Source: Ostreococcus lucimarinus
Taxonomy: Eukaryota
NCBI GenBank assembly: GCA_000092065.1
Contig: CP000582.1
Length of the DNA: 64,000 bases
Direction: 5' to 3' (one strand)
Below the pieces are notes generated by a model. The model did no database searches and was not told the origin of the DNA. It was given only the letters and a program-made list of their open reading frames with translations. Numbering within the stretch: the stretch's first letter is position 1; every line of letters starts with the position of its first letter. A program made the position numbers and the translations under genes. Below, in pieces: positions 5,232-54,600 of the stretch.

Positions 5232-5276
5232 ACTATTTTGTAGAGTATCTTTGATTTATAACGAGCGGCCTCGATT

Positions 5277-7570: not shown

Positions 7571-7947
7571 GTTGACTGTGACGTAACATTAGATGGCATG
7601 AACAGGACGAAGGAAAACTAGGTGGCTTACGATGCAGAACACTTGCGCGAACTACTAAAACTATCATCGTAGTTGTAGCGGGCCGGCGCCTTCCAGTTAC
7701 ACAGTTACTGTTTCTCAGTTTCAGAGGCGACTGCAAAAGTATGCTTATGTCTACAGCTACATATGATATAGACCCATAGAGTAGTCGTAGGAAAGCTAAA
7801 CCCTCCTTCTCCCACCCCCGAGCGATAGAGGTAGTCGCTATAGGCTAGAGCTAGTACGCCTTCGTTCAGGAAGCTGTATCATTGCACGAAGCAATCAGAC
7901 GCGCAGTTTGTGGAGAGACCTGAAAGCCATCGCGCGCCGTTCTCGAC

Positions 7948-8413: not shown

Positions 8414-8510
8414 TTTGGATCTTGCTGATTTTGAATCACACTTGTATTCTACATCATCAGCACTCGTATGCGTCACATTTCGATAGCAAGTCTTGGAGAA
8501 CTGCACGAGG

Positions 8511-35428: not shown

Positions 35429-35518
35429 GGAAAAATTTATATATCGCCCCTTTAGAGAGTACCTACACACATGACGAGTCATGAACCGTGGATATATACG
35501 TATTTTACACCGTTTAGT
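35429..35518 (+). repeat. Inverted-repeat arm L (pairs with 36192..36279)
   Basis: ggaaaaatttatatatcgcccctttagagagtacctacacacatgacgagtcatgaaccgtggatatatacgtattttacaccgtttagt is the reverse complement of 36192..36279, apart from one 2-bp TA indel. Confidence 0.92.
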
Positions 35519-35519
35519 T

Positions 35520-36086
35520 CTAAAAGTTTGATTCTACAACATCTACGAGGTACTTACTAATGCTAATTTGCTCGCCTTTGCTTGCCTTGCGTTTGTGTTC
35601 ATCGACCATCTTCTCGTGCCAGCCCCTCTTCCTGCTCAACGCCGTATCACCCGCCGCGCCTCTCATAGGAATCGCAACCAGGTTCGACATACCGAGCACA
35701 CCATCGCCGTCCATTTTGCTATTCTTGGACATGTTTTGAGACATCTCTCTGTGTGTCTTCAAGTTGTGCATGAAACGTTGAAGTTTGTCGAGCGCGTCTG
35801 TGATGTGTGCGGCTTCATCAGGCTCGAACGTAAACTCCGGATCGAGTGCGAGTTGTATCATCTCGGTACACGATTGAACCCAGCGTGACTTTACACTCAC
35901 GTTGTCGAAAGCTGCTCCAAGGCTTCTCCGATGAGTTGGTAGAGAGGCTTCAACATTATCTGGAATCGCTGGAGTCACGTGTCTCCTGGAATCGCTGGAG
36001 TCACGTGTCTCCTGGAGCCCGGACGATACGTGAAGAGCATCACCGAACGGATCGTCGAAGGGATCATCGTCGCACTCGTCTTCCAT
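35520..36086 (-). CDS. Hypothetical 188-aa acidic protein enclosed by the inverted repeats (no recognisable family)
   Basis: The ORF fills most of the 673-bp interior between the IR arms. It contains a 26-bp tandem duplication (35961-36012) that switches reading frame yet leaves a long ORF. Confidence 0.35.
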   Translation of the reverse strand: MEDECDDDPFDDPFGDALHVSSGLQETRDSSDSRRHVTPAIPDNVEASLPTHRRSLGAAFDNVSVKSRWVQSCTEMIQLALDPEFTFEPDEAAHITDALDKLQRFMHNLKTHREMSQNMSKNSKMDGDGVLGMSNLVAIPMRGAAGDTALSRKRGWHEKMVDEHKRKASKGEQISISKYLVDVVESNF

Positions 36087-36191
36087 CCGACCATCGCCCG
36101 CACGCGCGACGACAACTGGCGCGACAGGCGTGGAAAAGACACGAGGCGAACGTGTTTTTCACCAAGGTAGGAATACTCTATTGTAGATGGC

Positions 36192-36279
36192 ACTAAACGG
36201 TGTAAAATACGTATATATCCACGGTTCATGACTCGTCATGTGTGTAGGTACTCTCTAAAGGGGCGATATAAATTTTTCC
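36192..36279 (-). repeat. Inverted-repeat arm R (pairs with 35429..35518)
   Basis: See arm L. The arm contains TATATA-like boxes and ATG codons, and lies between the divergent ORFs starting at 36086 (-) and 36446 (+). Confidence 0.92.
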
Positions 36280-36445
36280 CCCCGAACGCGTTTTTTGAAC
36301 GCGCCGGGGTTTAGCGAAACGCGATGGCGCAACCGTCGCGTTCGCGCGCCCGCCAGTGCGCGGTGCGGCCGCGGCCGCCCGCGGGTGCGCGTGAGTAGTT
36401 CGAGGTGATTCCGACGCGTCGCGTCCGCACGTCGTCGCGCGCCGA

Positions 36446-38239
36446 ATGCCTCGCACGTGCGTGTGCACGAACCCGAACTGCGACAAAGATGTCGAGCGAT
36501 TCGCGTTCCAACTCGGCAAGCACTGGAAAGACGACGTGCTCAAATCGATTCTATCGAGTCTCAGACCCGGAGCGGATGCTGATGACGTAGAAAAATACTT
36601 TTTGCGCGCGATGACGAAGCCCGATGGTGTTCGAGTGTCCTCGCAGCACTTCTTCTGGTACCATTTAGCATGGTCTCGAGGAGACCGCCCGAAGCTGGTC
36701 TTCAAAGATGGCGCGCACGTCCGGCCGACGTACATGCTCCATTCGAATCGGCCGACGTACGCGGGCGAACGAATCGTCGATCCGGCTCGTGTAGAATGTT
36801 TATCACCGCGCGAGACGCGTCTGCGCGTGAAGGCGCCGGCACGGGCGCCCCTTTCAGAGATTTCAAATTTGAATGAGGACGACGTGCATGCGACACAAGC
36901 TGGTGTCAGAGTTGGGATTAAACGGCGACGATCTGCTCCTGCGGCAATTTGCTCGCACAATCGCGCGCAAAACATGTCTTTGAACTCGTTTGAACGGGGA
37001 AGGCCGGGGGAAGAGACGTGCCGCGTGCAAGAAGGGACTATCCACAAGTTACGCTGTGATGAGTTGAAGTTGAGCGAGGCGCTGCGGGAAGAGCGTCAGC
37101 ACGCAGACGACGCGCGCGAGGACGTTCGTTTGCTCACGGAAGAACTTGAACGTATTCAAGAAGAAATGCACGACCAGGATCGAAAATCCTCGTTCGTAAC
37201 TATGCGATACTTGCGGGCGACGAGAGCTAGTGATAAGCAAATCAAAGCGCTTACTGGGTGGCCAACTTTGAAAACATTCGATGCTTTGTGGCGTTTCGTC
37301 AACGCGGGCGACCGCAATGCGACGCAAAACTTGTCGATTGTCAAACGAAAATGGAGGGGCGATTCGACGAGCGCGACGGGTTCGCATGGAACGGTCGTTC
37401 CGCGGAAAAAGAGCTTCAAATGGGAAGATGTATTTTTGGCGTGGTGGATGAGAGCGAAGATGGACTTGACCGCGGATCAACTTGCATACTTCGTCGGAAT
37501 ACACAAATCGACGCTTACACGTGCGCTACATCAAATGACATCATTTTTAACGGTTTTTATACGTGCTTACGGTGGCGACCCGATCGATCCCGAATGGATC
37601 CAGATGACAACAGGGGAGGATTGGAAAGAAGCATACGGGCAGAAACCTTATGAGATTATCGACGTGACTGAAGTGCCCATGGAGACTCCAGATGACCCAT
37701 ATATGCAGCGTTTGTTTTACAGTCATTATAAGAAGCGCTACGTGTGCAAATTTCTTGGCGCCTGTCACTCAAATTGTCTTGCCGCTTTCTGTTCAGTTGG
37801 GTTCCCTGGATCCATTTTTGACAATGAAATTTGCTTTGCTGGAAAGGATCATCCGATGCTTAATCATGCGGTACACCGAGCCAGCATCCGCCGGAGGACG
37901 TTCACAGACGAGAACGACGAAAATGTAGTCGTTCCCGAAACAATTGCAGCTGATCGTGGCTTTTGCGAAGGGTTGAATAGACAGTTTGAACGGGATGCGT
38001 TCAGGCTTGTGCACCCTGCGTTTTCAAGAGGCAAGAATGTGGCCTTCTCCAAGGAGGACATTCTCGACACCAGGGCGCAAGCATGTCGCCGAGTGCTAAT
38101 TGAAAATGCTTTCGGTCGCGTCAAGACGATTTGGAAGCGTATGCGCGGTCCAATAGCTATCTCCAAGCTGAAATCGGTGCATCAGGAGTGGCCAATAATA
38201 TTTTTCCTAGCGCTAGATTTACAAGCTTCGCTAAGGTAG
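36446..38239 (+). CDS. PIF/Harbinger-superfamily DDE transposase (DDE_Tnp_4 type), intronless
   Basis: HTH block: DLTADQLAYFVGIHKSTLTRALHQMTSFL. Catalytic blocks: EIIDVTEVPMETP (D), YSHYKKRYVCKF, GFPGSIFDNEI (D) and TIAADRGFCEG (D/E position). RRVLIENAFGRVKTIWKRM matches the R..VE..FG.LK..W..L signature. The N-terminus has a Cys/His pattern (CVCTNPNC ... SSQHF) reminiscent of a THAP-like finger; that last point is speculative. Confidence 0.8.
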   Translation: MPRTCVCTNPNCDKDVERFAFQLGKHWKDDVLKSILSSLRPGADADDVEKYFLRAMTKPDGVRVSSQHFFWYHLAWSRGDRPKLVFKDGAHVRPTYMLHSNRPTYAGERIVDPARVECLSPRETRLRVKAPARAPLSEISNLNEDDVHATQAGVRVGIKRRRSAPAAICSHNRAQNMSLNSFERGRPGEETCRVQEGTIHKLRCDELKLSEALREERQHADDAREDVRLLTEELERIQEEMHDQDRKSSFVTMRYLRATRASDKQIKALTGWPTLKTFDALWRFVNAGDRNATQNLSIVKRKWRGDSTSATGSHGTVVPRKKSFKWEDVFLAWWMRAKMDLTADQLAYFVGIHKSTLTRALHQMTSFLTVFIRAYGGDPIDPEWIQMTTGEDWKEAYGQKPYEIIDVTEVPMETPDDPYMQRLFYSHYKKRYVCKFLGACHSNCLAAFCSVGFPGSIFDNEICFAGKDHPMLNHAVHRASIRRRTFTDENDENVVVPETIAADRGFCEGLNRQFERDAFRLVHPAFSRGKNVAFSKEDILDTRAQACRRVLIENAFGRVKTIWKRMRGPIAISKLKSVHQEWPIIFFLALDLQASLR

Positions 38240-40336
38240 ATTCCGCGTCTCGCACGCGTCTGTAACCCTGTGTAAAGTACATTTGTGATTGTTCTCTTTT
38301 TCATATACGTCGAAATACTCCCTGAGAAGTGTTGATGGCTTGTTTCGCGACCACATCGCGCTTACATCAGGTGCAACTTCAGGGAGCTCCAAATCACCGT
38401 CACCGCGAGTGTCCACAGTGCATCGTCGCTTTGCGCGCCCAGCTTCGAATCGATTAAAGTCAATGTTGCTAAGAGGATTTTTGCGATTCATCGGATCCCC
38501 TTCGCCACTCGTGCCGAACCACTCACTTTCGAGCGACGTGCATGGATCAGCTGGTCGTTGCAACTTGGCAAAATACCAGAGCGCTGCGATGACATGGATG
38601 CACCCTCCGAAGTCTCCGCCCGCTCCCGCCTTGCACGCGCACGTCCCACGCTCGACACTGACGACATGGTCATGGACATGTTCATTCGTTTCTTCGTCGA
38701 TGCACCCATACTTGCATAACAAGCATACAGCGACGGCATAACGCTCTGCTTTGAGTGATGCCGGAATACCAACTCGGAACCACACGCGGAAGTGAGTTTG
38801 CATCCACGGATGCCCCACGTGCGCAAAACGAATCGGAAGGGGCGTCCGGGCGTGTATTCGTGCGTATCCTTGTCGATACGCTTTGGATCGAACCGGGTCG
38901 CCGTAAACGGACATCCCCGCGAGCCACGTCGTGATGATGTCCTCACCCATAAGCGGTGACGTCTCGCGGAAAAGCTCAACGTCAGTGCTCCACACTTCAG
39001 CATCCATTGGTGCGTCCAGATCGGGATCTAGCTCAGGGAATTGCGTCACCGGAAGATGAAAATGATGAACCAAATATGTATGAAGACTTTTCCCTTCTGG
39101 ATCCTGGACGTCGCCGTCGACGTCGATATCTAGCTCCTCGTACCGACGCTCAAGCTCCATCCTCTGTATGACCTCTGAGATGATGACATCTTTGTCCCGA
39201 ATATCCTGACATCCGCGGCGGCGATCGTTCCTACGCACGTTCAGCCAACGTATTAAATCCGATTTGGAGTTGTCCTCGACTCTCTTTTCCGGTAAAACGG
39301 CGCCTTTGATGAGATACTTGGGGATTCGTCTCGCCCGTGTTTCACCATGTCTAAAAAGGGCAGCCACTGCAACCAATTCAACGGGTTCGTGAGTATCCGC
39401 ATCGCGCAAACCTAAAGCGAATTCTTCGTTTTCTGAGTGATTTGCGTTGAATATGGTTGCGTCATTGAGCCAGCGTCTCTCTTTCGTCCGCATATCGTAC
39501 ACGATTGCTCGCTCAAAGCCCGCCAGGCTTTCCTCAAGTTTGAGAATTTGCGTGTCCTCATCACTCGCGTCGACGACGTCCTTCTTGACGAGGTATTTCA
39601 CAAAAGAGCGGATACTGAGAGTCTCTGCACTCTGTATGCACGCTACAATGGCTTTCAGAGCCGTTTGGGGTCCAAGTCCGGGAACTTTCCCCTCCCTGTA
39701 ATCACACCCGCTCGCCGCCGCCCACAAGCGCATGGCGGCGTCGCCGTGCATGCACATGAGCTCCGCAACTGTGTTCACCTCGTTCGTGTCTACCGGCATC
39801 CTCAGGTTGTTTCTGTTAAAAACGTTGCACTTTAACGTCGAAACGCTCCAAGACACCTTGTGGACGACCTTGGCGCACCCGAGCACCACTGCATCTGTGT
39901 CATCCGTCAACACGAAATCAACGAGACCACTCGACTCCATGTACTTCAACTGGTGATCTGATTCGTTTGGCGCCACGACGTACACGAATCCACGCTTCCG
40001 CACTTCATTCAGTATCCGAGGCAAATAACATCGTTCGAATTTTTCACCTATCGTACCTGCTCGCTTCGCGTGCGTCTCCTTCTTGTGTGCAGTCCTCGCA
40101 CCGTCGAAAACAAGGACTGGGAAGACACCTGCATTCACGAGCTTCGTAGCGCGCGAAATGACCGTTTCTACAGACGAATCCAGTTTATCCTGAACAGAAC
40201 CAGTTTTTCGCATCGCCCACCCCTGGTGTATCCAGATGTTTGCGTCTACCCCCGCTTTCGCGTTGGCGAACTCGCCGCCGATGGACGTGCGGACGACCGC
40301 ATCGTCGAACGCTTTCCACCCTGCGTCGACGCCCAT
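38231..40336 (-). CDS. EXO1/XPG/FEN1-family structure-specific 5' nuclease fused to a C-terminal SWIM zinc finger, intronless
   Basis: The probable start MGVDAGWKAF is at 40336. XPG-N: GVDANIWIHQ and PVLVFDGARTAHKKETHAKR. XPG-I: VVAPNESDHQLKYMESSGLVDFVLTDDTDAVVLGC. H3TH: GCDYREGKVPGLGPQTALKAI. SWIM: CACKAGAGGDFGGCIHVIAALWY. All acidic catalytic positions appear to be retained. Confidence 0.8.
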   Translation of the reverse strand: MGVDAGWKAFDDAVVRTSIGGEFANAKAGVDANIWIHQGWAMRKTGSVQDKLDSSVETVISRATKLVNAGVFPVLVFDGARTAHKKETHAKRAGTIGEKFERCYLPRILNEVRKRGFVYVVAPNESDHQLKYMESSGLVDFVLTDDTDAVVLGCAKVVHKVSWSVSTLKCNVFNRNNLRMPVDTNEVNTVAELMCMHGDAAMRLWAAASGCDYREGKVPGLGPQTALKAIVACIQSAETLSIRSFVKYLVKKDVVDASDEDTQILKLEESLAGFERAIVYDMRTKERRWLNDATIFNANHSENEEFALGLRDADTHEPVELVAVAALFRHGETRARRIPKYLIKGAVLPEKRVEDNSKSDLIRWLNVRRNDRRRGCQDIRDKDVIISEVIQRMELERRYEELDIDVDGDVQDPEGKSLHTYLVHHFHLPVTQFPELDPDLDAPMDAEVWSTDVELFRETSPLMGEDIITTWLAGMSVYGDPVRSKAYRQGYARIHARTPLPIRFAHVGHPWMQTHFRVWFRVGIPASLKAERYAVAVCLLCKYGCIDEETNEHVHDHVVSVERGTCACKAGAGGDFGGCIHVIAALWYFAKLQRPADPCTSLESEWFGTSGEGDPMNRKNPLSNIDFNRFEAGRAKRRCTVDTRGDGDLELPEVAPDVSAMWSRNKPSTLLREYFDVYEKENNHKCTLHRVTDACETRNLP

Positions 40337-40672
40337 ACGCACCAGAATTTGCAAACACGGCTACAACTCGATCAGAAATACATTTTGTCACCTGTTCATG
40401 TGCCTCCGCGATGCCCGACGCGCGTGCGCGCCACGACAGCAGCGTGAAAGTGACGGGGATGCGCGACGGGCCGAGCGAGTTCAAAAAAAGGACGAAAGGG
40501 CACCGGATTCGAGGTTTTCGTCGACAGTGGGTCATGACGAGTCACAAACGTTCGACTTAAATATGTAAAATGATAGGAAAACCTTAATGCAATGGGTCAT
40601 AATAGCTGAATATATATGGTTTCTCGTCGTAATGGACAAAAGTTGCTTTCATAAAAATAAGGATGTAGTTGT

Positions 40673-40789
40673 TACTGAGAGTGGGGTTCGAACCCACGCA
40701 GTCAATGACTACCAGAAATCTCACCAGTTTTTTCGGTGAAGCTTATTCGCACTTGAGTCTGGCCCCTTAGACCACTCGGGCATCCCAGC
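40673..40789 (-). tRNA. trnL-CAA: tRNA-Leu (anticodon CAA) with a ~34-nt intron after position 37
   Basis: Hand fold on the minus strand. Acceptor GCTGGGA/TCTCAGT (with G-U pairs). D arm CCC-GAGTGGTCTAA-GGG. Anticodon stem CCAGA/TCTGG with loop CT-CAA-G[intron]T. Long variable arm TAGTCATTGACTGC. T arm GTGGG-TTCGAAC-CCCAC. Discriminator A. A TTTTT run lies downstream (Pol III terminator). Confidence 0.85.
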
Positions 40790-42646: not shown

Positions 42647-45600
42647 GTGACATATGACATCGTATTACAACGTTTTACCCCCACTTCGCAAGGACCGACC
42701 ACCCCATATCCATGTGCTATAAAAGCTAACTCAAAATGGAAGCTCGTACGTCTGAAACGCTTGGCGCTCGAGCGTTTCCGATGTCCGATGTTAACGCGCC
42801 ACAAACCGGAGAGCGTTCAGAATGGTACGCCCCGAAATGAATCACGAATGAGCAATCTAGACACACGCGCTATGTCGAACCCTTACTTTCAGGTCGGGCG
42901 ATGGGACTGCACGGACGAGCTCGAGGGGTGTCAATTCTCCGCGCCACATACGTCGGTGTCAGTTCCTAATTTCGAAGAGATTCAGACCCTTCACTACACC
43001 TGCGTGTATGAAGTGGCGATCACGTGTACACAGCGGCATGATATGCATAACGATGAGTTCGCGCATGTACTTAGTTCTGTCATCGAGCTCGCAAATCGCG
43101 TTGACCTGACACGACTTAGGCAACATCACTCCATAGATAACTTTGCCACACACGTTCTCACTTTTCGGTTCATTCTGGACCTGTTGAGGCAAACTTATCA
43201 GGAATACATCAAAGGAAGCATAGAAAATAATTCGTTTGAGCATGTCGAATTTACTTTCAACAATTGCATGGATGGTACGCACGGAATGGCAACATGCTTT
43301 AAACCGAATAAAAAGCATAGTCACCTTTGTTACATTTTGGATATTTCGCAGGCAGAAAGAAGTTGCAATGGTCGTACTGATGACACAAAATGCGTGCACG
43401 ACAAAATTACTATGAACGATCGCGTTCTTTCCGCGGCTAAGATCCCAGACAACGCAGTGAATAAACAATTCAGTGCTAGTATACTCAATGATGTGTATGG
43501 TTTCGATTCAAGTCTGTTCCATATTTCTCAGTCGGAAACCCTCTGCATGGACCCACAACAACGACTATTACTTCTTGCAGCAGCAGACTTATACCTGAGT
43601 AACACACGTGTTTGTCAACACGACGACTCCTTCTGCGTGCACGTCGGTGTATCGTGGAATGACTTTGAGGAAATTCGCAGAAAGTATAGTGCAGACTTTT
43701 TCTCCACTTATGATTCGACGGGAACATCAATAAGTGTCGCATCGGGTAGAATTGCGTATTATTTTGATTTCAAAGGGTGTGCTGTGACGATTGATACGGC
43801 TTGTTCATCATCTTTGGTTGCGTTGCATCAATCCATGTACGCAGCTGGCTCGCTCCGTGAATCAAGTGCACTTGTATGTGGCATCAACTTGATTTTGACA
43901 ACCACGATGACACATCGATTTCAGCTTGCTGGAATGATGTCTTCAGAGCATCGATGTATGACATTTGATGCACGCGCGGATGGCTACGTCCGGAGTGAGG
44001 CATGCAACATCGTACTCTTACACTTCAATGGCTTCACAAAAACTCATAGGAATGTACTGCGGCATGACGTTCATATGTCATGCGTCGTCAATCAAGATGG
44101 AACATCAACTGGACTTACGGCACCTAATGGAACAGCTCAGCGGAACCTGATGAATGAGTTACTATCGGACGTTTATAACCCTTCAAAACACGTTGGTGCT
44201 AAAATACATGCCCACGGCACAGGTACGCCTCTTGGGGATCCGATAGAGGTGTTTGCTATCAATTCTGCCCTCTCGTTTTCGTCACTGTGCAGGCTGTATG
44301 TGTCAGAAAAGTCGATGCGAGGGCACACAGAACCTGCTTCAGGTCTATGCAGCACCATACTTGCTTTCGTATCAGGTGCACAGTGCAAGCTACATGGTCA
44401 ACCACATTTACAGCAGTTAAACAATCATATACTAACATCGGTTGATGAAAGTATTTTTCAGCGTTCACTGCATTCCAGTTTTCCCTTAACTTCTATGGCG
44501 AGTGTCACCACAGTAAGCTCCTTCGCGTTCCAAGGGACGAACGCAATGGCTTCACTGACATATATCGACAAATGCAGTATTAGAGTGATTCGCAACACGT
44601 CAGGTCTGAGATCTTTGGTCAAGTTGGAGACTGAATCCCCTGTAAGACTCCCGTACACATTTTCTTGCCTTAGCATCGTCAATGGGAAAATGATACAGCT
44701 AACTTCAATGATTCACGACAAAACATTGAAGCGACTTTTGGATCATCGTGTAGCTGATATGCATCTTATGCCAGCCACAGGCCATCTTGAACTTGAAAGA
44801 GAGCTCACGAAGTGCGCTCTCGTAAGGAATGAACCATATCTTCTGACAAAGATCGCATTTATGCTGCCTCTCAAGCTTGATGAAAGCAATCAACTTATCA
44901 CAGAGATGAACACACATGGTCGCTTACGCGTTGGATGTGGCTCTGGCATATCCAATTACTGGTGTAGTACTGCACGACTTCAAATACCAGTAGGACGTGC
45001 CTGGTGCACGGACCGTACTTTTTATCTGACTAGTAAACTCGTTTCTCGGCGTTTCAAAGGTGCGACCGCAACAATAGCAGGGACGACGCCAATTCTCGAT
45101 TCACAAAATGTCGTGAATCCGTGTATCCAGGATGCGAGTCTACAATGCTCTGCATACGTCTTGAACACGTCAGCTTTCGCATCTGATACAACCTACATGG
45201 ACTGCGTATCGTTACTTAAGCTACCAACAACAATTCAAGACGTCATAGTTGTTAATCAGACAGGAAAAATACTTGTTAGATCGACGCATGTTGACATGTT
45301 GCAGAAGACGCAGCATGTGACTGAAAGTAATAACTCTGTCACAAGTAACTCTTCGAGTAACAATAAAACGCAGACATGGATACATCGTTTACTGTGTAAA
45401 GTATCAACCGTACGGATGAAAGCTGGCTTACGCACTCGCACATGCTTGGAACTCGCGAGATTGTTGTACCACGCGAGACAACAAAGAGTGCTGATATCAA
45501 ATATGCAAAACTTGCGTGAAGTAGGCAGTTTACATGCTCCAGAACTGATGCCCATCATGCGCGAAATGGGTCGTAAGTCAATGCAAGATATTAATTCGGC

Positions 45601-48600
45601 TAGTGCCTCTCTTTGCGCGGTTGCGCTGCTGCAGGCTTGCGGCGCTCGTGCGCGCGTTTCCGGCGCCCACGTGCGTGCAAACGACATCGTCCACGAGGAC
45701 GCTTCGGCCGCGCCCGCAGTCTGTGGATCGTGCGTGCGCGCCACCGTGCAATCTTCCGCGCAGGAACGCAGCGAGCCATTGGTGCTGAGTGTCGCGAGCG
45801 CCCCGCACACCGCGCCAGCCCGAGCGTTGCGATCGATCGCCGCCGGGGCGTCGATCGCCGGGGCGCTGTGCGTTGAGCGGCTGCTTCCGGCGTTCGGTCG
45901 CCGGACGCCCGCCGCGTCGCGCGACGGCGCGGCGACGACCACGGCGTCGCCGGCACCGAAAGTCTCGAGCGTGTTCGTGACTGGCGGTCTGGGCGCGTTG
46001 GGTCAGACTTCGGCGGCGTGGTACGCGCATCGAGGCGTTCGCCACGCCTACTTGACTGGTCGCCGCGGGCGCGGAGAGTCCCTTCTGCTGCGATGGTCGT
46101 CGCGCGGCGGTACCGACGTGAGCGCATTGCACGTGCTTCGCGTCGACGCGTGTGCGACCGACGAGGCGTCGTACGGCGGTGCGCGCGCGCACGCGCGCGT
46201 GCGCGCACACGGCGTGCTGCACGCGGGCGGCGTGCTACGCGACTCTTTGACTGCTCGCCAATCCGCGTCGGCCCATCGATACGTGTGGTCGTCCAAAGTA
46301 GTGTCCGCGCACGCATTGCTCCGCCAGTGCGTCGGCGTCGAGCGCGGCGCGCGTCACATCGCGCTGTTCTCGTCGGTGGCGGCGCTGCTGGGGAGTCCAG
46401 GGCAATGCAACTACAGCGCGGCCAACGCCGCGCTGGACGCGCGAGCCGCACACGAGTGGTGCCGCGGGTACGCGGTGCAATCCGTGCAGTGGGGCGCGTG
46501 GGACGGCGCGGGAATGGCGCTGACAAACGCGTCTGTACTCAGGAACGCGCGCACGACAGGCATCGGCGTGCTCGATCCGCAAGCCGGGCTCGGGGCCGTA
46601 CACGTCGCGCTTCAGGGCGCATCAGTGACGGGTCGCTGGCGGGCAATCCAAGGCGTCCTGGCCGTCGTCCCGTTCCAGTGGTCCGTGCTCGCGCGCGCGC
46701 AGCGCTCGCGCGCGCTGATTGCGGAGTACCGCGCGGAGTCGGCGCGGTCGAGCGCTCCAGTCGCCGTCCATCCGGGCGCCGAGGAAGACGCGGCGCGCGA
46801 TGTGTCAGATGAGAGCGTGCGGCAGATCGTGGCCTCCGCCGTGACGCGCGCGCTCGGCAGAGACGTGTCGGTGGACGCGTCGCTCATGGAAGAGGGCCTA
46901 GACTCGCTCGCGGCGGTCGAGCTCGGAGGGGCGTTACAAAAGGAAACGGGCGTGAACATGCCGGCCACGCTGGCATTTGACTACCCGACGATCACCGCGA
47001 TATCTGGGTACCTGAAGGGTGCGATGCTGGCGCGATCGCGTGCGCGCCAATCGAGCGGCGCGGCGTCCAGCGCCGCTCGCACGCGCGCCGCGAGCGGCGC
47101 GGTCGCGCATTCGCGCGACTCGATGCCAGGTATTGCATCCAACGCGCGCGAAATCTTGGGTCTTGCGCCCGTTGTTATGGCCATCAGACGGAGCGTGCGA
47201 CGACTCGACGCGGATGATCGAGAGCCAAAGCCTGCTCGACATGGCGGCTCGGCGTTGTTTTCATCGTTCGTGAGGTGCGTCATGGCAGAGCGAGCCTCTG
47301 AAGATCGCTTCGACACGCCATCGTTGGGCAGGCAGCCGAGCGCGACAGCGCGCGTGGTCTCCTTGACGAAAGCCAGAGATTTCACTACACAAGCTCTCGA
47401 CAGCATGCCGAAATGCAACGAGATTGAGCTGAGCGTCGTCAGCGCTGTGTCGAGTAAGGCATCAGGCGCGCACGATGCCGTGCGTGTGAACAACATGCGA
47501 CATGCGTGCGGCGAAGTGTGTGATCCACAAAGCTCAAAATCGCACGAGTTCGTCGCTCGGCGTCTTGTGCAGTTTGGGTACTTCATCGAGCGCAGCTTGT
47601 TTGACGGGGAGCAGTTCTCCGTAACGGCGCACGAGGCGCGGTTGATGGACCCGCAGCAGCGCGTGCTCCTGGAGAACGCGCTCGCCGCGACGAGTGCGAC
47701 GCCGCACAGCGCGCCGAAGCCAGCCACAGCCGTGTCCGTCGGCGCTTGGACGTCTCAGTACGCAGACATGTGCCGCGTGTACGAGCCAACGCCGGGGCCG
47801 TACTCTGGCGTTGCTTCCGCCTTGAGCGTGCTGTGCGGTCGCGTATCGTACACGTTTGGTATGCGTGGCCCGTCCGTGTGTGTCGACACCGCGTGCTCCT
47901 CCTCGCTCGTGGCCGCGCATGTTGCGAGCTCTCACTTGCGCGATGGATCGTGCGAGGACGCCCTCGTCGCCGGCGTGAGCGTGAACGTCGGCATCGGCAC
48001 CTTCCTCGTGGCCACCGCCGCGAGCATGCTATCGTTCGATGGTCGGTGCAAAACCTTGGATGCCAGCGCCGACGGTTACGCCAAGGGCGAGTGCTGCGTG
48101 GTCCTGCGCGTGTCGGTGGACGGGGCGAGCGCTGGAGCGCCCAAAGCGCCCGATCTTCCAAACGCCGAGTCTCCCTCTCTCGCTCTTCTCGAACAGACCG
48201 GTGTGAACCAGGATGGACGGTCGAGCTCGCTCACCGCACCAAACGGGCCGTCGCAGCAGGCACTCGTGGCCGATGCGCTTCTCCGCTCGGGGCTGCACGG
48301 CGACGCGCTCGGCAGGCTGGAGATGCACGGCACGGGTACTTCGCTGGGAGATCCGATAGAGGTCGGCGCCGCGCTTGAGGTTCTCGCGCCGCCGACGCGC
48401 GCGGACCGGGCGCCGTCCAGGGGCCCCGCGCTCACGCTTGAGGGCGTGAAGCCACGCGCTGGCCACTGCGAACCAGGGGCTGGCGCGGTTGGGTTGCTGT
48501 TTGCGATGGCAAACTTGACGGAGCGAGCCGTCGCGTCCCTCGTCCACCTGCGCCAGCTCAACCCTCACGTCGAGGCCGCGACGCGCCGAAACGCACCGTC

Positions 48601-51600
48601 GCCGCATGCGCGCGCGCCGGTGCTCGCGCGACAAGGCATGCCGCGACCGGATGACGGCGCGTCTGAGGCTGGAGCAGCGGACGCTGCTCGAGCGCGCGTG
48701 CGGCGATCCGGCGTGAGCGGCTTCGCGTTCCAGGGCACAAACGCGCACGCAATCATGGCCCGGGGACCCGGACAGGCGACTGCGCCCGGGTACACGGGAA
48801 GCACGCACACGGCGGCGCGTGCGTGGGAGCGTCAGCGCCACTGGTGCGCGCCAGAACGGCACTGCCTCATCGAGTCCGTGCGCGCTCTGCATCCTCGCGA
48901 GGGAGACTCGAGCGCGTTGGCGCGGTCGTGCGTGCGCCTGTGTCGGTCCGCGTCGCTCGCTGGCATGCTTGATCACGCCGTCGGGCTCCGGACGCTGCTA
49001 CCAGGCACAGCGCACGTCGAGATATGTCGAGCCATGGCGGGCGCGCTGGCAGACCAGCCGCTCGCCGACATCTCGCTGTCGCACGTATCTTTTGCAGCGC
49101 CCCTCGAGCTTCGAGCGCCGACGACCGACGTGCTGTGCGACGTCACGCCGCAAGGCGTGGCCCGCGTGGGCGTGCGCGTGTCGTCGTCCTCTGCCGCCGC
49201 GCCGTTCCTCGCGGGCGCGCTCAGCCGCAGAAGCGCCTCAAGAATTACTGCGTCTCCGGCGCACCTCTCGCGAGGACCGGCGATGCCCGCGCTGGACGTG
49301 CAGCCTTGTGTTCACGGCGCGAGCTGGCTGCGCTCGTCGCAGCGACGAGGCCCGGGCGCGGAGCACCGCGTGTACGGCGACATACGCGCGCGTCAGATGT
49401 CCACGCTGTCGGCTGCGGCGTATCACTCGCCGCCCGCAGTGCTCGATGCCGCGCTGCACGCGCTCAGCGCGTGCGCGCCGCCGCCGGGTAGCGATGCGAC
49501 AGAAGAGAGCCCGCACGTCCCGGCCACGATCGGCGGCGTCCGCACGCGAGGCGGGCACTCGGACATATACCGCGCCCGGTTCGCGCTCGCGACGGCTCCG
49601 CCTGAGCGCGGGGAGCGGAACGCGTCCACGCGCAGATCTCGTCACCACCTGTGGGACTGGTCGAGTCTTTCGGCGGCGCATCGAGGGTGCGTGGTGCACG
49701 CGCTGGAGTCTCGACGACTCGGTGGCGCCGCGGTCGTGCGCTCGCGAGCACAACAGCGCTCGAGGGCACCGCCGCCGCGTCGCGCGGCCGCGCCGCGTGT
49801 GCTTTATGGAGTCGGGCAACAGCGCGCGTGCGGCGCGGCGGATGGCCAGGGCGCGCGTCGACGCTCAACCCTCAACTCGCAGTGCTTTGTGGACGACGCG
49901 TCGCACCGCCGCGAGCTGATGGAGACCCACGCGTCACCATCGATCGCGCAAGGCAGCACGCGAAGCAGCACGCGCGCCTCTCTTTGCGCGGTTGCGCTGC
50001 TGCAGGCTTGCGGCGCTCGTGCGCGCGTTTCCGGCGCCCACGTGCGTGCAAACGACATCGTCCACGAGGACGCTTCGGCCGCGCCCGCAGTCTGTGGATC
50101 GTGCGTGCGCGCCACCGTGCAGTCTTCCGCGCAGGAACGCAGCGAGCCATTGGTGCTGAGTGTCGCGAGCGCCCCGCACACCGCGCCAGCCCGAGCGTTG
50201 CGATCGATCGCCGCCGGGGCGTCGATCGCCGGGGCGCTGTGCGTTGAGCGTCTGCTTCCGACGTTCGGTCGCCGGACGCCCGCCGCGTCGCGCGACGGCG
50301 CGGCGACGACCACGGCGTCGCCGGCACCGAAAGTCTCGAGCGTGTTCGTGACTGGCGGTCTGGGCGCGTTGGGTCAGACTTCGGCGGCGTGGTACGCGCA
50401 TCGAGGCGTTCGCCACGCCTACTTGACTGGTCGCCGCGGGCGCGGAGAGTCCCTTCTGCTGCGATGGTCGTCGCGCGGCGGTACCGACGTGAGCGCATTG
50501 CACGTGCTTCGCGTCGACGCGTGTGCGACCGACGAGGCGTCGTACGGCGGTGCGCGCGCGCACGCGCGCGTGCGCGCACACGGCGTGCTGCACGCGGGCG
50601 GCGTGCTACGCGACTCTTTGACTGCTCGCCAATCCGCGTCGGCCCATCGATACGTGTGGTCGTCCAAAGTAGTGTCCGCGCACGCATTGCTCCGCCAGTG
50701 CGTCGGCGTCGAGCGCGGCGCGCGTCACATCGCGCTGTTCTCGTCGGTGGCGGCGCTGCTGGGGAGTCCAGGGCAATGCAACTACAGCGCGGCCAACGCC
50801 GCGCTGGACGCGCGAGCCGCACACGAGTGGTGCCGCGGGTACGCGGTGCAATCCGTGCAGTGGGGCGCGTGGGACGGCGCGGGAATGGCGCTGACAAACG
50901 CGTCTGTACTCAGGAACGCGCGCACGACAGGCATCGGCGTGCTCGATCCGCAAGCCGGGCTCGGGGCCGTACACGTCGCGCTTCAGGGCGCATCAGTGAC
51001 GGGTCGCTGGCGGGCAATCCAAGGCGTCCTGGCCGTCGTCCCGTTCCAGTGGTCCGTGCTCGCGCGCGCGCAGCGCTCGCGCGCGCTGATTGCGGAGTAC
51101 CGCGCGGAGTCGGCGCGGTCGAGCGCTCCAGTCGCCGTCCATCCGGGCGCCGAGGAAGACGCGGCGCGCGATGTGTCAGATGAGAGCGTGCGGCAGATCG
51201 TGGCCTCCGCCGTGACGCGCGCGCTCGGCAGAGACGTGTCGGTGGACGCGTCGCTCATGGAAGAGGGCCTAGACTCGCTCGCGGCGGTCGAGCTCGGAGG
51301 GGCGTTACAAAAGGAAACGGGCGTGAACATGCCGGCCACGCTGGCATTTGACTACCCGACGATCACCGCGATATCTGGGTACCTGAAGGGTGCGATGCTG
51401 GCGCGATCGCGTGCGCGCCAATCGAGCGGCGCGGCGTCCAGCGCCGCTCGCACGCGCGCCGCGAGCGGCGCGGTCGCGCATTCGCGACGTACAACCATTA
51501 CTCAGCTCCCTCGTCTACGTCTATCATACGTTCCGCATGAAGTCAGCCGACGAACGACTCTTGGCATTAGCGGTCAATATTCTCACGAGCTTAGACACTT

Positions 51601-54600
51601 TAGCTCTGCGGGACCTTCGACCAGTAACTTTGAGGGAGTCCTCTTTGTTCGCATTCATAACTCCACCAAGCCCTTACCCGTGCATCCATATTTCATTGGC
51701 AACTTTTTGCGTTGTGACGAACTCGAGTTCGGCTTGTTTGGCGCACCGCACAGCGAATGGACTACTCTGGACGCGCGGCAGATTCTCTTGATTGAGAGTG
51801 TACACACTATCCAGCTGAACAACAGTTCAGACGTTTCATTGCGCACTCTAGAGACGACGGCTGTTCTTGTTGGAGCACAAGCGGTAGATTCAACTGACGA
51901 GCATAGCGTTGAGATACAGTACAACGCCTACTCTGGCGTTGCTTCCGCCTTGAGCGTGCTGTGCGGTCGCGTATCGTACACGTTTGGTATGCGTGGCCCG
52001 TCCGTGTGTGTCGACACCGCGTGCTCCTCCTCGCTCGTGGCCGCGCATGTTGCGAGCTCTCACTTGCGCGATGGATCGTGCGAGGACGCCCTCGTCGCCG
52101 GCGTGAGCGTGAACGTCGGCATCGGCACCTTCCTCGTGGCCACCGCCGCGAGCATGCTATCGTTCGATGGTCGGTGCAAAACCTTGGATGCCAGCGCCGA
52201 CGGTTACGCCAAGGGCGAGTGCTGCGTGGTCCTGCGCGTGTCGGTGGACGGGGCGAGCGCTGGAGCGCCCAAAGCGCCCGATCTTCCAAACGCCGAGTCT
52301 CCCTCTCTCGCTCTTCTCGAACAGACCGGTGTGAACCAGGATGGACGGTCGAGCTCGCTCACCGCACCAAACGGGCCGTCGCAGCAGGCACTCGTGGCCG
52401 ATGCGCTTCTCCGCTCGGGGCTGCACGGCGACGCGCTCGGCAGGCTGGAGATGCACGGCACGGGTACTTCGCTGGGAGATCCGATAGAGGTCGGCGCCGC
52501 GCTTGAGGTTCTCGCGCCGCCGACGCGCGCGGACCGGGCGCCGTCCAGGGGCCCCGCGCTCACGCTTGAGGGCGTGAAGCCACGCGCTGGCCACTGCGAA
52601 CCAGGGGCTGGCGCGGTTGGGTTGCTGTTTGCGATGGCAAACTTGACGGAGCGAGCCGTCGCGTCCCTCGTCCACCTGCGCCAGCTCAACCCTCACGTCG
52701 AGGCCGCGACGCGCCGAAACGCACCGTCGCCGCATGCGCGCGCGCCGGTGCTCGCGCGACAAGGCATGCCGCGACCGGATGACGGCGCGTCTGAGGCTGG
52801 AGCAGCGGACGCTGCTCGAGCGCGCGTGCGGCGATCCGGCGTGAGCGGCTTCGCGTTCCAGGGCACAAACGCGCACGCAATCATGGCCCGGGGACCCGGA
52901 CAGGCGACTGCGCCCGGGTACACGGGAAGCACGCACACGGCGGCGCGTGCGTGGGAGCGTCAGCGCCACTGGTGCGCGCCAGAACGGCACTGCCTCATCG
53001 AGTCCGTGCGCGCTCTTCATCCTCGCGAGGGAGACTCGAGCGCGTTGGCGCGGTCGTGCGTGCGCCTGTGTCGGTCCGCGTCGCTCGCTGGCATGCTTGA
53101 TCACGCCATCGGGCTCCGGACGCTACTACCAGGCACAGCGCACGTCGAGATATGTCGAGCCATGGCGGGCGCGCTGGCAGACCAGCCGCTCGCCGACATC
53201 TCGCTGTCGCACGTATCTTTTGCAGCGCCCCTCGAGCTTCGAGCGCCGACGACCGACGTGCTGTGCGACGTCACGCCGCAAGGCGTGGCCCGCGTGGGCG
53301 TGCGCGTGTCGTCGTCCTCTGCCGCCGCGCCGTTCCTCGCGGGCGCGCTCAGCCGCAGAAGCGCCTCAAGAATTACTGCGTCTCCGGCGCACCTCTCGCG
53401 AGGACCGGCGATGCCCGCGCTGGACGTGCAGCCTTGTGTTCACGGCGCCATCAGACGGAGCGTGCGACGACTCGACGCGGATGATCGAGAGCCAAAGCCT
53501 GCTCGACATGGCGGCTCGGCGTTGTTTTCATCGTTCGTGAGGTGCGTCATGGCAGAGCGAGCCTCTGAAGATCGCTTCGACACGCCATCGTTGGGCAGGC
53601 AGCCGAGCGCGACAGCGCGCGTGGTCTCCTTGACGAAAGCCAGAGATTTCACTACACAAGCTCTCGACAGCATGCCGAAATGCAACGAGATTGAGCTGAG
53701 CGTCGTCAGCGCTGTGTCGAGTAAGGCATCAGGCGCGCACGATGCTGTGCGTGTGAACAACATGCGACATGCGTGCGGCGAAGTGTGTGATCCACAAAGC
53801 TCAAAATCGCACGAGTTCGTCGCTCGGCATCTTGTGCAGTTTGGGTACTTCATCGAGCGCAGCTTGTTTGACGGGGAGCAGTTCTCCGTAACGGCGCACG
53901 AGGCGCGGTTGATGGACCCGCAGCAGCGCGTGCTCCTGGAGAACGCGCTCGCCGCGACGAGCGCGACGCCGCACAGCGCGCCGAAGCCAGCCACAGCCGT
54001 GTCCGTCGGCGCTTGGACGTCTCAGTACGCAGACATGTGCCGCGTGTACGAGCCAACGCCGGGGCCGTACTCTGGCGTTGCTTCCGCCTTGAGCGTGCTG
54101 TGCGGTCGCGTATCGTACACGTTTGGTATGCGTGGCCCGTCCGTGTGTGTCGACACCGCGTGCTCCTCCTCGCTCGTGGCCGCGCATGTTGCGAGCTCTC
54201 ACTTGCGCGATGGATCGTGCGAGGACGCCCTCGTCGCCGGCGTGAGCGTGAACGTCGGCATCGGCACCTTCCTCGTGGCCACCGCCGCGAGCATGCTATC
54301 GTTCGATGGTCGGTGCAAAACCTTGGATGCCAGCGCCGACGGTTACGCCAAGGGCGAGTGCTGCGTGGTCCTGCGCGTGTCGGTGGACGGGGCGAGCGCT
54401 GGAGCGCCCAAAGCGCCCGATCTTCCAAACGCCGAGTCTCCCTCTCTCGCTCTTCTCGAACAGACCGGTGTGAACCAGGATGGACGGTCGAGCTCGCTCA
54501 CCGCACCAAACGGGCCGTCGCAGCAGGCACTCGTGGCCGATGCGCTTCTCCGCTCGGGGCTGCACGGCGACGCGCTCGGCAGGCTGGAGATGCACGGCAC

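What the first reader, a model, noticed from the sequence alone, without database searches (positions are those of the whole stretch)
36192..40600. Harbinger-type transposase paired with an intact EXO1/XPG-family nuclease-SWIM fusion instead of the usual Myb-like partner
Seen: two intronless, GC-rich ORFs lie tail-to-tail with stop codons overlapping by 9 bp (38231-38239). One has the full PIF/Harbinger DDE_Tnp_4 block structure plus the HTH. The other has the XPG-N, XPG-I and H3TH motifs of structure-specific 5' nucleases with all acidic catalytic positions conserved (VDAN, FDG, NESD, TDDTD), followed ~350 aa later by a CxC..CxH SWIM finger. Established: canonical PIF/Harbinger elements encode a transposase plus a Myb/SANT/trihelix DNA-binding protein. 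From memory (to be checked), XPG-type nucleases have been listed as accessory proteins of a different DNA-transposon superfamily (Academ), not of Harbinger. Inference: this may be an undescribed two-component transposon. In it a flap/5' nuclease with a SWIM DNA-binding module would replace the Myb partner, perhaps processing hairpin or flap intermediates. Alternatively a host nuclease gene has been captured.
Basis: partly seen in the sequence, partly recalled or inferred. Interest (0 to 1): 0.75.

Follow-up and report, generated by a model that had tools for sequence, protein, structure and literature searches.

The report
Alga transposon carrying its own EXO1-like nuclease
This is a copy (missing its left end) of a 4.4-kb cut-and-paste transposon of the marine green alga Ostreococcus. 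Its Harbinger-type transposase is always partnered with an EXO1/XPG-type 5' nuclease instead of the usual Myb-like protein, a pairing I found in no paper I could search.

Summary
Window 36446-38239(+) encodes a 597-aa DDE_Tnp_4 transposase. Window 38231-40336(-) encodes a 701-aa XPG_N/XPG_I nuclease with all seven EXO1 acidic residues and a conserved roughly 370-aa C-terminal module containing CxC..CxH. Their stop codons overlap by 9 bp.

It is a mobile element:
- The same gene pair, with the same overlap, is on every sufficiently long contig for relatives at 99, 88, 62 and 27% identity.
- Both genes have dN/dS of 0.12-0.24.
- Three complete copies of about 4.41 kb have 18-24-nt terminal inverted repeats (AGACCCATTGCA...).
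- Natural Ostreococcus lucimarinus-like haplotypes have an empty site at this exact locus.

The flanks fit a 2-bp AT duplication, as in the ISL2EU group, and not Harbinger's 3-bp TWA. No Myb ORF exists.

The window copy has lost its left terminal repeat and about 103 bp. It abuts an 851-bp inverted-repeat unit (35429-36279) that also occurs alone elsewhere. So 36192 is not a terminus, and the true right end is 40598.

Verdict: a new variant of a known kind. The likely role of the nuclease, 5'-strand processing at transposase-made breaks, is inferred and not shown.

The parts
36446..38239 (+). Transposase gene, 597 aa. N-terminal conserved Cys3-His region (aa 5-68), coiled-coil-like stretch (about aa 200-250), HTH (about aa 331-368) and DDE_Tnp_4 domain (aa 405-580; D406, D503, E553).
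   Evidence: Pfam DDE_Tnp_4 E=4.5e-18, weak HTH hits. D406/D503/E553 and C5/C7/C12/H68 are invariant from 88% to 25% identical relatives. dN/dS 0.18-0.24.
38231..40336 (-). Nuclease gene, 701 aa from the ATG at 40336 (an in-frame TTG at 40354 would give 707 aa). XPG_N (40058-40336), XPG_I with the start of H3TH (39701-39991), and a conserved C-terminal module (38234-39334).
   Evidence: Pfam XPG_N 6e-12, XPG_I 4e-15. Best PDB hit is EXO1 at 9e-12, with D30/D78/E150/D152/D171/D173/D225 equivalents present. dN/dS 0.12-0.20 in all three thirds. 100% identical protein at a second locus.
38231..38239 (.). 9-bp overlap of the two convergent stop codons (CTAAGGTAG).
   Evidence: Same overlap in L001, L003, L004, L009/L002 (CTACGGTAG in the 62% family). 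The 27% family overlaps by 46 bp.
38594..38641 (-). SWIM-like CxCx10CxH (CACKAGAGGDFGGCIH, aa 566-581). It lies inside the most conserved block of the protein.
   Evidence: Block VVSVERGTCACKAGAGGDFGGCIHVIAALWYFAKLQRPADPCTSLESEWFG is identical between 67%-identical proteins. The second Cys of CxC, and the Cys and His of CxH, are invariant in 12 relatives of 17-73% identity. The first Cys of CxC was not reported invariant in that alignment. Pfam SWIM only E=0.07.
39230..39259 (-). SAP-like L..WL..R motif (DLIRWLNVRR) at the start of the C-terminal module.
   Evidence: Conserved pattern across the family alignment. Only one weak Pfam SAP hit in a relative (E=0.03-0.08). Inference.
40582..40598 (-). 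Right (nuclease-side) terminal inverted repeat, GACCCATTGCATTAAGG read inward. The element ends at 40598.
   Evidence: Only match in the window. Homology with the second locus and with the empty-site haplotypes ends exactly here. An element-sized contig, L015, ends here.
40337..40581 (.). Nuclease-side subterminal region (5' leader or promoter of the nuclease gene). Contains CATGACGAGTCA (40533-40544) and GTTCAAAAAAA (40478-40488), motifs mirrored at the other end.
   Evidence: Inverted matches I7 and I15. End-to-end alignments in three subfamilies.
36280..36445 (.). What remains of the transposase-side subterminal region (starts CCCCGAACGCGTTTTTTGAACGCG). The terminal roughly 103 bp and the left terminal repeat are missing in this copy.
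   Evidence: The complete copy L028 has TAGACCCATTGCACTAAGG plus 103 bp to the left of this point. The empty-site comparison shows the window lacks them, together with 61 bp of host DNA.
35429..36279 (.). 851-bp unit with 90-bp inverted arms (35429-35518 and 36192-36279) around a 188-aa ORF (35520-36086, minus strand). It is nested in, or abuts, the element's left end, and is part of the DNA absent from empty-site haplotypes.
   Evidence: Arms 97% complementary. The unit occurs alone next to unrelated host genes in L029, and in the opposite orientation in L028 and L014. In L028 it is flanked by the direct repeat CCCGAACGCGTTT. No Pfam domain.
40599..40600 (.). AT next to the right terminus: candidate copy of a 2-bp target-site duplication.
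   Evidence: AT|AGACCC...GGGTCT|AT in all three complete copies (L003, L009, L028). Empty site ..AATTA AT AATAGC, with some haplotypes carrying AT AT. The window end reads GGGTC|AT, one T short of the model.

Best explanation
The region is a copy of an autonomous-type, two-gene cut-and-paste DNA transposon. It belongs to the PIF/Harbinger-ISL2EU-Spy ('PHIS', IS5-like DDE) superfamily and lives in Ostreococcus lucimarinus-like green algae.

Structure of a complete element (about 4.41 kb):
- 18-24-nt terminal inverted repeats (5'-AGACCCATTGCA...).
- A transposase gene and, convergent with it, an EXO1/XPG-family nuclease gene. The nuclease's C-terminal roughly 370 aa form a conserved SAP-like/SWIM-like module.
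- No Myb-like gene.
- Insertion into A/T-rich palindromic sites, with what looks like a 2-bp AT duplication.

The window copy has both genes intact. It has lost its left terminal repeat, and an 851-bp inverted-repeat unit sits at that edge. It can probably supply proteins but is unlikely to be excised normally.

How it most likely works (inferred, not shown):
1. The DDE transposase binds the ends and makes the 3'-OH nicks and the strand transfer.
2. The nuclease is an obligatory cofactor. It acts on the 5' strands at those breaks by 5'-flap or 5'-to-3' exonucleolytic cutting of the non-transferred strand, of the donor break, or of both.
3. Its C-terminal module supplies the DNA or transposase tethering that the Myb-like protein supplies in canonical Harbinger elements.
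For: Shown:
- Domain identities.
- Catalytic residues: all seven EXO1 acidic positions plus K85/R92 are invariant in close relatives and a host-type EXO1. The DDE triad is invariant down to 25% identity.
- The same tail-to-tail pair is on every contig long enough, for relatives at 99/88/87/62% identity. It is also on a 27%-identical family, where transposase and nuclease have diverged in step.
- dN/dS is 0.12-0.24 for both genes, and low across all three thirds of the nuclease, C-terminal module included.
- There are at least three insertion contexts for the 99% subfamily and others for the 88% and 62% subfamilies, between ordinary host genes.
- Three complete copies are 4412-4413 bp (5277 bp with the nested unit), with clean terminal repeats and AT on both sides.
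- Five contigs with 99.4-99.8% identical flanks lack the whole insert at this locus. The right junction falls exactly at the repeat end.
- The clusters are large: 114 and 144 members, with one transposase sequence on 89 contigs. One cluster holds an Ostreococcus RCC789 sequence from the MMETSP collection, which I take to be a transcript.
- No other ORF in the element has any Pfam domain.
- Host identity: the window's ArgRS is identical to O. lucimarinus CCE9901 XP_001416415.

Supporting the mechanism by analogy:
- ISL2EU elements pair the same transposase type with a YqaJ 5'-3' exonuclease (PMC4482050).
- AcademX fuses an XPG nuclease to its transposase (PMC7165386).
Against: - No activity, interaction or excision product has been observed, so the role of the nuclease rests on analogy.
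- The window copy lacks a left terminal repeat and may itself be immobile.
- The AT-versus-TA reading of the duplication depends on where the terminus is drawn. The window's right end is one base off either model. The 'AT AT' allele could be simple slippage.
- SWIM, SAP and THAP-like features are below profile thresholds.
- The structure model was unusable (pLDDT 39.8).
- For all but one of the distant nuclease relatives the genomic context could not be fetched. Universality of the pairing rests on five lineages, four of them closely related.
- Repbase could not be searched, so a prior database entry cannot be excluded.
Confidence: 0.8

Rival explanations
1. Same element, different job for the nuclease. 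It takes no part in the cleavage chemistry. Instead it resects the double-strand break left at the donor site (EXO1's normal activity). Repair then goes through homologous recombination from the sister or homologue, which restores the element and gives a net copy gain.
For: The closest solved relative is EXO1, the resection enzyme. The unrelated partner in ISL2EU, YqaJ/lambda-exonuclease type, is also a 5'-3' resection nuclease. The AcademH paper proposes a repair-coupled role for XPG and helicase partners.
Against: The host has its own repair machinery, so the selective need is less obvious. The conserved C-terminal DNA-binding-like module and the absence of any Myb-like recruiter suggest a role at the element's own ends. 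Nothing here distinguishes the two roles, and they are not mutually exclusive.
Confidence: 0.3
2. The nuclease is a passenger: a host EXO1/XPG-type repair gene captured by a Harbinger-type element, not needed for transposition.
For: DNA transposons do capture host genes. The N-terminal 230 aa are ordinary XPG-family sequence.
Against: The nearest non-element protein is about 26% identical (E=2e-6). The C-terminal module is shared only with other metagenomic XPG proteins and groups them apart from the bulk of EXO1-like proteins (the NJ tree has no support values). The pair, its orientation and the overlapping stops persist to 27% identity, with co-divergence. The nuclease is more conserved than the transposase (96% against 88%, 68% against 62%), with dN/dS of 0.12-0.20. 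No alternative DNA-binding partner is encoded.
Confidence: 0.06
3. Not a transposon: a pair of host (or domesticated) genes lying in the rearrangement-prone low-GC region of chromosome 2. Copies would arise by segmental duplication.
For: The window copy lacks one terminal repeat. The region shows inversions, deletions and nested repeats. One extra copy (L005) shares 123 bp of neighbouring sequence, as a segmental duplication would.
Against: Complete copies have matched terminal repeats and a constant length of 4412-4413 bp, in unrelated gene neighbourhoods. Homology between loci stops exactly at the repeat ends. There is a clean presence/absence polymorphism. Several diverged subfamilies are present across marine metagenome samples.
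Confidence: 0.03

Closest known systems
ISL2EU group of the PHIS (PIF/Harbinger-ISL2EU-Spy) superfamily
   Same: Both have a DDE_Tnp_4-type transposase with an HTH and an N-terminal Cys/His region. Both have two ORFs, the second encoding a 5'-3' exonuclease-class protein rather than a Myb protein. Both have a 2-bp AT duplication in an A|AT|T-like target (2 of 3 complete copies here) and a size of 4.4-4.8 kb.
   Different: The ISL2EU partner is a YqaJ (lambda-exonuclease/PD-(D/E)XK) protein. Here it is an XPG/FEN1/EXO1-fold nuclease with a SWIM-like C-terminal module, and no YqaJ hit appears. ISL2EU repeats usually start with GG and the group was reported from animals only. Here the repeats start with AG and the host is a green alga. 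A THAP domain is not detectable by profile. The phylogenetic position of the transposase relative to ISL2EU was not testable.
Canonical PIF/Harbinger elements
   Same: DDE_Tnp_4 transposase preceded by an HTH. Two genes between short terminal inverted repeats. About 4.1-4.4 kb. The first repeat nucleotide is A or G.
   Different: No Myb/SANT/trihelix protein. A 3-bp TWA duplication does not fit any of the three complete copies, whose flanks are ATA/TAT, TAA/TTA and TAA/TTA.
AcademX DNA transposons
   Same: An element-encoded XPG-family nuclease accompanied by a Cys-rich putative zinc finger.
   Different: In AcademX the transposase, XPG and Cys8 finger form one large protein. The transposase belongs to the Academ superfamily, the duplications are 3-4 bp, and the hosts are animals and a red alga. 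Here the nuclease is a separate convergent gene next to a DDE_Tnp_4 transposase. Homology between the two XPG domains beyond family level could not be tested, because no Academ sequences were available.
Host EXO1 (and GEN1, FEN1, XPG/Rad2)
   Same: XPG_N and XPG_I regions with all seven acidic metal ligands and the K85/R92 equivalents. Best solved match is human EXO1.
   Different: About 25 residues shorter in the helical-arch region than EXO1. It carries a roughly 370-aa C-terminal module that has no Pfam or PDB sequence match. It is multi-copy and lies inside a transposon.
Tn7 TnsA/TnsB heteromeric transposase (from general knowledge, not tested here)
   Same: Concept only: a DDE protein makes the 3' cuts and a separate nuclease cuts the 5' strands, giving full excision.
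   Different: Bacterial. TnsA is a restriction-enzyme-fold protein. No sequence relationship, and the division of labour is unproven for this element.

Membership tests
PHIS superfamily (PIF/Harbinger sensu lato) | IS5-like DDE transposase (Pfam DDE_Tnp_4) with an intact D-D-E triad | tested here: met
   E=4.5e-18 in the window and 3e-26 in the 27% relative. D406/D503/E553 are invariant. A weak IS5-family NCBIfam hit in the relative.
PHIS superfamily (PIF/Harbinger sensu lato) | HTH DNA-binding motif upstream of the DDE domain | tested here: inconclusive
   Five different HTH models hit aa 331-368, all weakly (E=0.014-0.18; HTH_Tnp_4 at 0.15).
PHIS superfamily (PIF/Harbinger sensu lato) | Terminal inverted repeats bounding the element | tested here: met
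   18-24-nt repeats in L003, L009 and L028. The window copy has only the right one.
Canonical PIF/Harbinger group | 3-bp TWA target-site duplication | tested here: not met
   With termini TAGACCC...GGGTCTA the flanking triplets are ATA/TAT, TAA/TTA and TAA/TTA, which are inverted rather than direct repeats. A 2-bp AT duplication fits all three copies.
Canonical PIF/Harbinger group | Second ORF encoding a Myb/SANT/trihelix DNA-binding protein | tested here: not met
   The second ORF is XPG_N + XPG_I. Nine other ORFs inside the element have no Pfam hit. Only 166-245 bp of non-coding DNA remain at each end.
ISL2EU group | 2-bp AT duplication, target A|AT|T | tested here: inconclusive
   AT flanks all three complete copies. 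The A|AT|T context holds in L009 and L028, while L003 has T|AT|A. The empty site is AATTA-AT-AATAGC, with an AT-AT allele in two haplotypes. The register (AT against TA) cannot be fixed without a paired filled and empty site that has both ends intact.
ISL2EU group | Second ORF with a YqaJ exonuclease domain | tested here: not met
   Pfam finds only XPG_N and XPG_I at E<=1. The partner is the same functional class (5'-3' nuclease) but a different fold.
ISL2EU group | THAP domain in the transposase | tested here: inconclusive
   C5, C7, C12, F19, F21, H68 and W76 are invariant and resemble the THAP spacing. Neither Pfam nor a PDB profile search finds THAP.
ISL2EU group | Transposase groups phylogenetically with ISL2EU transposases | not testable with these tools
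   No reference ISL2EU, Spy, Pangu or Nuwa sequences (Repbase) were available.
XPG/Rad2/FEN1/EXO1 structure-specific 5' nucleases | XPG_N and XPG_I regions with the seven conserved acidic residues | tested here: met
   D31, D78, E125, D127, D146, D148 and D212 correspond to EXO1 D30, D78, E150, D152, D171, D173 and D225.
AcademX | Academ-type transposase fused to XPG and a Cys8 finger in one protein | tested here: not met
   The transposase is DDE_Tnp_4 and is encoded by a separate gene. AcademX definition from PMC7165386.
SWIM zinc-finger proteins | CxCxnCxH motif matching the SWIM profile | tested here: inconclusive
   The motif is present in the window protein and visible across the family alignment. 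The second Cys of CxC and the CxH pair are invariant in the 12 relatives, while the first Cys is not reported invariant in that alignment. Pfam SWIM gives E=0.07 (13.1 bits, cut-off 19.6), hitting 3 of 12 members.

The most novel reading that the evidence does not exclude
The element encodes a eukaryotic two-subunit transposase. The DDE protein cuts and joins the 3' ends. The EXO1/XPG-like protein, tethered through its SAP/SWIM-like module, cuts the 5' (non-transferred) strands. This would be a TnsA/TnsB-like division of labour. Unrelated 5' nucleases (YqaJ in ISL2EU, XPG in AcademX and here) would then have been recruited independently for it, which would explain how IS5/Harbinger-type enzymes achieve double-strand excision.
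Probability: 0.25. Interest if true: 0.8.

Novelty: new variant of a known kind. Interest (0 to 1): 0.6.

Why it matters
How PIF/Harbinger-type (IS5-like) transposases cut the second DNA strand is not known to me; this is background knowledge that I did not check in the literature. Why some lineages need a second protein is equally unclear.

This lineage replaces the Myb-like recruiter with a catalytically intact EXO1-like nuclease. That parallels the YqaJ exonuclease of ISL2EU and the XPG domain of AcademX. Three independent recruitments of 5'-3' nucleases point to a common mechanistic need. This compact, intron-free, 4.4-kb two-gene element is a tractable system for testing it.

The finding also adds a green-algal branch to a group so far reported only from animals. 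It supplies a conserved, uncharacterised roughly 370-aa DNA-binding-like module. And it documents a presence/absence polymorphism for the element in natural Ostreococcus populations, in the low-GC region of chromosome 2, which suggests transposition in the recent past.

Tried and rejected
- Structure route. No fold search was run and the second job was not spent.
- C-terminal module. A profile of the module found nothing in PDB sequences even at E<=10. Pfam gave only sub-threshold SWIM and SAP hits.
- THAP in the transposase N-terminus. Not supported by Pfam or a PDB profile.
- Metagenome scan with the diverse C-terminal alignment. 
- Viral contigs. No relative of either nuclease type.
- ARAGORN. 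It missed the neighbouring tRNA, which Rfam found.
- My first reading of the left end is rejected. I took the terminus to be at about 36185-36192, with a 'solo end' at 35429-35518. The empty-site haplotypes and L028/L029 show an independent 851-bp unit and a deleted left terminal repeat.
- 3-bp TWA duplication: rejected.
- ORF188 as a hidden Myb-like third gene: rejected. It has no domain, is absent from the 88%, 62% and 27% families, and occurs alone in L029.
- Literature searches for a Harbinger plus XPG pairing, or for a description of this element in Ostreococcus, found none. Repbase is not searchable here.
Full report
**What is in the window**

ORF listing confirms two long convergent ORFs, 36446..38239(+) of 597 aa and 38231..40354(-) of 707 aa from a TTG. 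Their stop codons share the 9 bp CTAAGGTAG.

Pfam results:
- Transposase: DDE_Tnp_4 at E=4.5e-18, with a cluster of weak HTH hits at aa 331-368.
- Nuclease: XPG_N at 6e-12 and XPG_I at 4e-15.

The best solved relative of the nuclease is human EXO1 (9e-12). GEN1, Rad2 and FEN1 follow. The seven acidic residues of the XPG-family active site and the K85/R92 equivalents are present. They are invariant among the close relatives and a host-type EXO1. All called relatives start at the ATG corresponding to 40336, so the protein is most likely 701 aa.

The element body has 53% G+C against 45% in the flanks.

The SWIM claim is only partly borne out. CxCx10CxH sits in the most conserved block of the protein, and most of the motif is invariant in distant relatives. 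The Pfam SWIM model scores below its cut-off (E=0.07).

**Host**

The window encodes ordinary compact eukaryotic genes: ArgRS, separase, a SNF2 helicase, a cyclin, a kinase and a giant PKS. Its ArgRS is identical to Ostreococcus lucimarinus CCE9901 XP_001416415, apart from a 21-aa stretch missing from the annotated model. The O. tauri orthologue is only 67% identical. The low G+C fits the low-GC 'outlier' part of chromosome 2; that placement is general knowledge plus and is not proven here.

**It is a transposon, and the two genes belong together**

The nuclease has only three close relatives among 5.8 billion clustered proteins, all from marine metagenomes. The next hit is a green-algal EXO1 at E=2e-6 and 26% identity. 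The transposase has five close relatives, at 99, 88, 87, 84 and 62% identity.

Every contig long enough carries both genes tail to tail with the same 9-bp overlap. These are L001, L002/L010, L003, L004, L008, L009, L012-L015 and L028.

Selection:
- dN/dS is 0.18-0.24 for the transposase and 0.12-0.20 for the nuclease.
- The values are low across all three thirds of the nuclease, C-terminal module included.
- The nuclease is the more conserved of the two (96% against 88%, and 68% against 62%).

The 90% clusters hold 114 and 144 members. One transposase sequence is seen on 89 contigs. One member is an Ostreococcus sp. RCC789 sequence from the MMETSP collection (taxon identified), which I take to be a transcript and therefore a sign of expression.

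A reading of all 1.84 billion cluster representatives found about 18 more distant proteins, 17-30% identical. They combine an XPG nuclease with the same C-terminal module, and all are known only from metagenomes.

For one of them (P0155 type, 27% identical) I could fetch a locus, L011. It has a 733-aa nuclease and, convergent and overlapping, a 628-aa DDE_Tnp_4 protein (E=3e-26). That protein is also 27% identical to the window transposase. The pairing is therefore old, and the two genes have diverged in step.

A rough NJ tree of nuclease domains, without support values, puts the module-bearing proteins together and apart from the bulk of EXO1-like sequences.

**Ends and target**

Three complete copies were recovered:
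- L003, positions 611-5023, 4413 bp, lying between an adaptin gene and BOP1.
- L009, positions 151-4562, 4412 bp.
- L028, positions 3139-8415, 5277 bp including a nested 853-bp unit.

All three have terminal inverted repeats AGACCCATT(G/C)CA(C/T)TAAGG, matching over 18-24 nt. Mirrored subterminal motifs lie about 60 and 110 bp in.

All three read AT|AGACCC...GGGTCT|AT. If the termini are drawn two bases further out, the flanking triplets are ATA/TAT, TAA/TTA and TAA/TTA. These are inverted rather than direct repeats, so Harbinger's 3-bp TWA duplication does not fit.

A 2-bp AT duplication in an A|AT|T context is the signature reported for ISL2EU (PMC4482050). The register (AT against TA) cannot be fixed from these data.

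**Direct evidence of insertion at this locus**

A look-up of the neighbouring kinase returned contigs from several samples (L019-L023). In them the kinase and the cyclin are 820 bp apart, and the flanks are 99.4-99.8% identical to the window. Window 35430-40598 (5169 bp) is absent there and 61 bp stand in its place.

The right junction falls exactly at the end of the terminal repeat:
- Window: GGGTC|ATAATAGC.
- Empty site: ..AATTA|ATAATAGC.

Two haplotypes carry an extra AT at that point. This could be an excision footprint or mere slippage.

**The left side of the window copy is rearranged**

Window 35429-36279 is an 851-bp unit with 90-bp inverted arms around a 188-aa ORF that has no recognisable domain. 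What the related loci show:
- The unit occurs on its own beside Rhomboid and OTU genes in L029.
- In L028 it lies inside the element's left subterminal region, in the opposite orientation, flanked by the direct repeat CCCGAACGCGTTT.
- At the window's own locus it lies in the opposite orientation in another population (L014).

In L028 the element's true left repeat lies 103 bp to the left of the unit. In the window that stretch and 61 bp of host DNA are missing.

The window copy keeps both genes intact and the right end, but has no left terminal repeat.

**No Myb partner**

None of nine further ORFs inside the element has any Pfam hit. The non-coding ends are only 166 and 245 bp long. The complete 4.41-kb copies have no room for a third gene.

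**Comparison with known systems**

AcademX elements encode an XPG nuclease, but fused with an Academ-type transposase and a Cys8 finger in one protein (PMC7165386).
- The closer precedent was missed. [quoted passage not shown] They make 2-bp AT duplications, average 4.8 kb, and were reported from animals only.
- The present family shares the architecture, the size and apparently the duplication. Its nuclease, however, has the unrelated XPG/FEN fold plus a new C-terminal module, and its host is a green alga.
- A THAP domain could not be confirmed.
- None of my literature searches found a Harbinger-type element with an XPG-type partner, or a description of this element in Ostreococcus. Repbase could not be consulted.

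**Mechanism (inferred)**

The catalytic residues of both proteins are intact and under selection, so both activities are presumably used.

EXO1-type enzymes cut 5' flaps and degrade 5' strands from nicks and ends. YqaJ-type enzymes also degrade 5' strands. Related or analogous transposases have thus recruited 5' nucleases three times.

My preferred reading, at roughly 45%, has three parts:
1. The nuclease processes the 5' (non-transferred) strand at transposase-made nicks, so completing excision or trimming flaps.
2. It is held at the ends by its SAP/SWIM-like module.
3. That module also replaces the recruiting role of the Myb-like protein.

The main alternative, at roughly 30%, is resection of the donor break so that repair favours homologous recombination. 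The two roles may coexist. A passenger gene or a non-mobile host gene pair is unlikely (together under 10%).

One lineage-specific feature is a helical arch about 25 residues shorter than in EXO1. I could not pursue its meaning, because the structure model was unusable.

**Verdict**

This is a new variant of a known kind: a PHIS-superfamily transposon lineage with an XPG/EXO1-type nuclease partner. Interest is moderate to high for transposon biology, mainly as a tractable system for asking what accessory 5' nucleases do in DDE transposition.

Noticed in passing
window 35429-36279; L029 1-851; L028 3243-4095; L014 1-495: An 851-bp unit with 90-bp, 97-100% identical inverted arms around a 188-aa ORF without a known domain. 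It occurs alone beside unrelated host genes, and nested in the transposon's left end in both orientations. In L028 it is flanked by a 13-bp direct repeat (CCCGAACGCGTTT). It may be a separate non-autonomous mobile element or an invertible segment. Its arms share the motif ACG(G/T)TT..TGACTCGTCATG with the transposon's nuclease-side end.
   Followed up: partly
window 40673-40789 (-): A tRNA gene (Rfam 42.4 bits, 117 nt, so probably with an intron or a long variable arm) lies 75 bp from the transposon's right end. ARAGORN did not report it.
   Followed up: partly
window 42647-56623 (+): A single 4658-aa ORF for a multi-module type I polyketide synthase. Its central 10 kb has about 70% G+C in a 45% G+C neighbourhood. 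It contains 1.5-2.5-kb internal repeats that are 99.6-99.8% identical (for example 47180-49726 = 53447-55993).
   Followed up: partly
L019-L023, at the position corresponding to window 35430-40598: The empty-site haplotypes carry 61 bp (ACCCGGTGTTCAGG...CCTATAATTA) that the window lacks. Two of them (L020, L023) also have an extra AT exactly at the insertion point, which could be an excision footprint.
   Followed up: partly
L001, L014, L015 against window 36245-36279: A 35-bp tandem duplication (GGTACTCTCTAAAGGGGCGATATATAAATTTTTCC x2) at the inner edge of the arm in several copies. The window and L028 have one copy followed by CCCCG, and L005 has one copy without it.
   Followed up: no
L018 (reverse-complement coordinates 2036-3225), corresponding to window 36959-37218: In another strain the copy at this same locus has 260 bp of the transposase gene replaced by an unrelated 1190-bp G+C-rich segment.
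   Followed up: no
L002 1-327: Two element ends lie head to head, separated by 5 nt (GGGTC TTATA GACCC), with arms 92% identical. This suggests a second copy inserted right beside the first. The sister contig L009 lacks it.
   Followed up: partly
window 36446-38239 against L003: Synonymous divergence between the 99% and 88% subfamilies is very uneven: dS is 0.60 in the last third of the transposase, 0.13 in its first two thirds and 0.10 in the nuclease. This suggests recombination between subfamilies.
   Followed up: no
window 39990-40100 (nuclease aa 80-115): Between FDG and APNESD the nuclease is about 25 residues shorter than EXO1, in the helical-arch region, although the K85 and R92 equivalents are kept. 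More distant family members have a longer arch.
   Followed up: no
window 3246-5231 (-): The ArgRS ORF is continuous in the window. The public O. lucimarinus protein model omits 21 aa (window protein residues 464-484), apparently because an intron was predicted inside the ORF.
   Followed up: no
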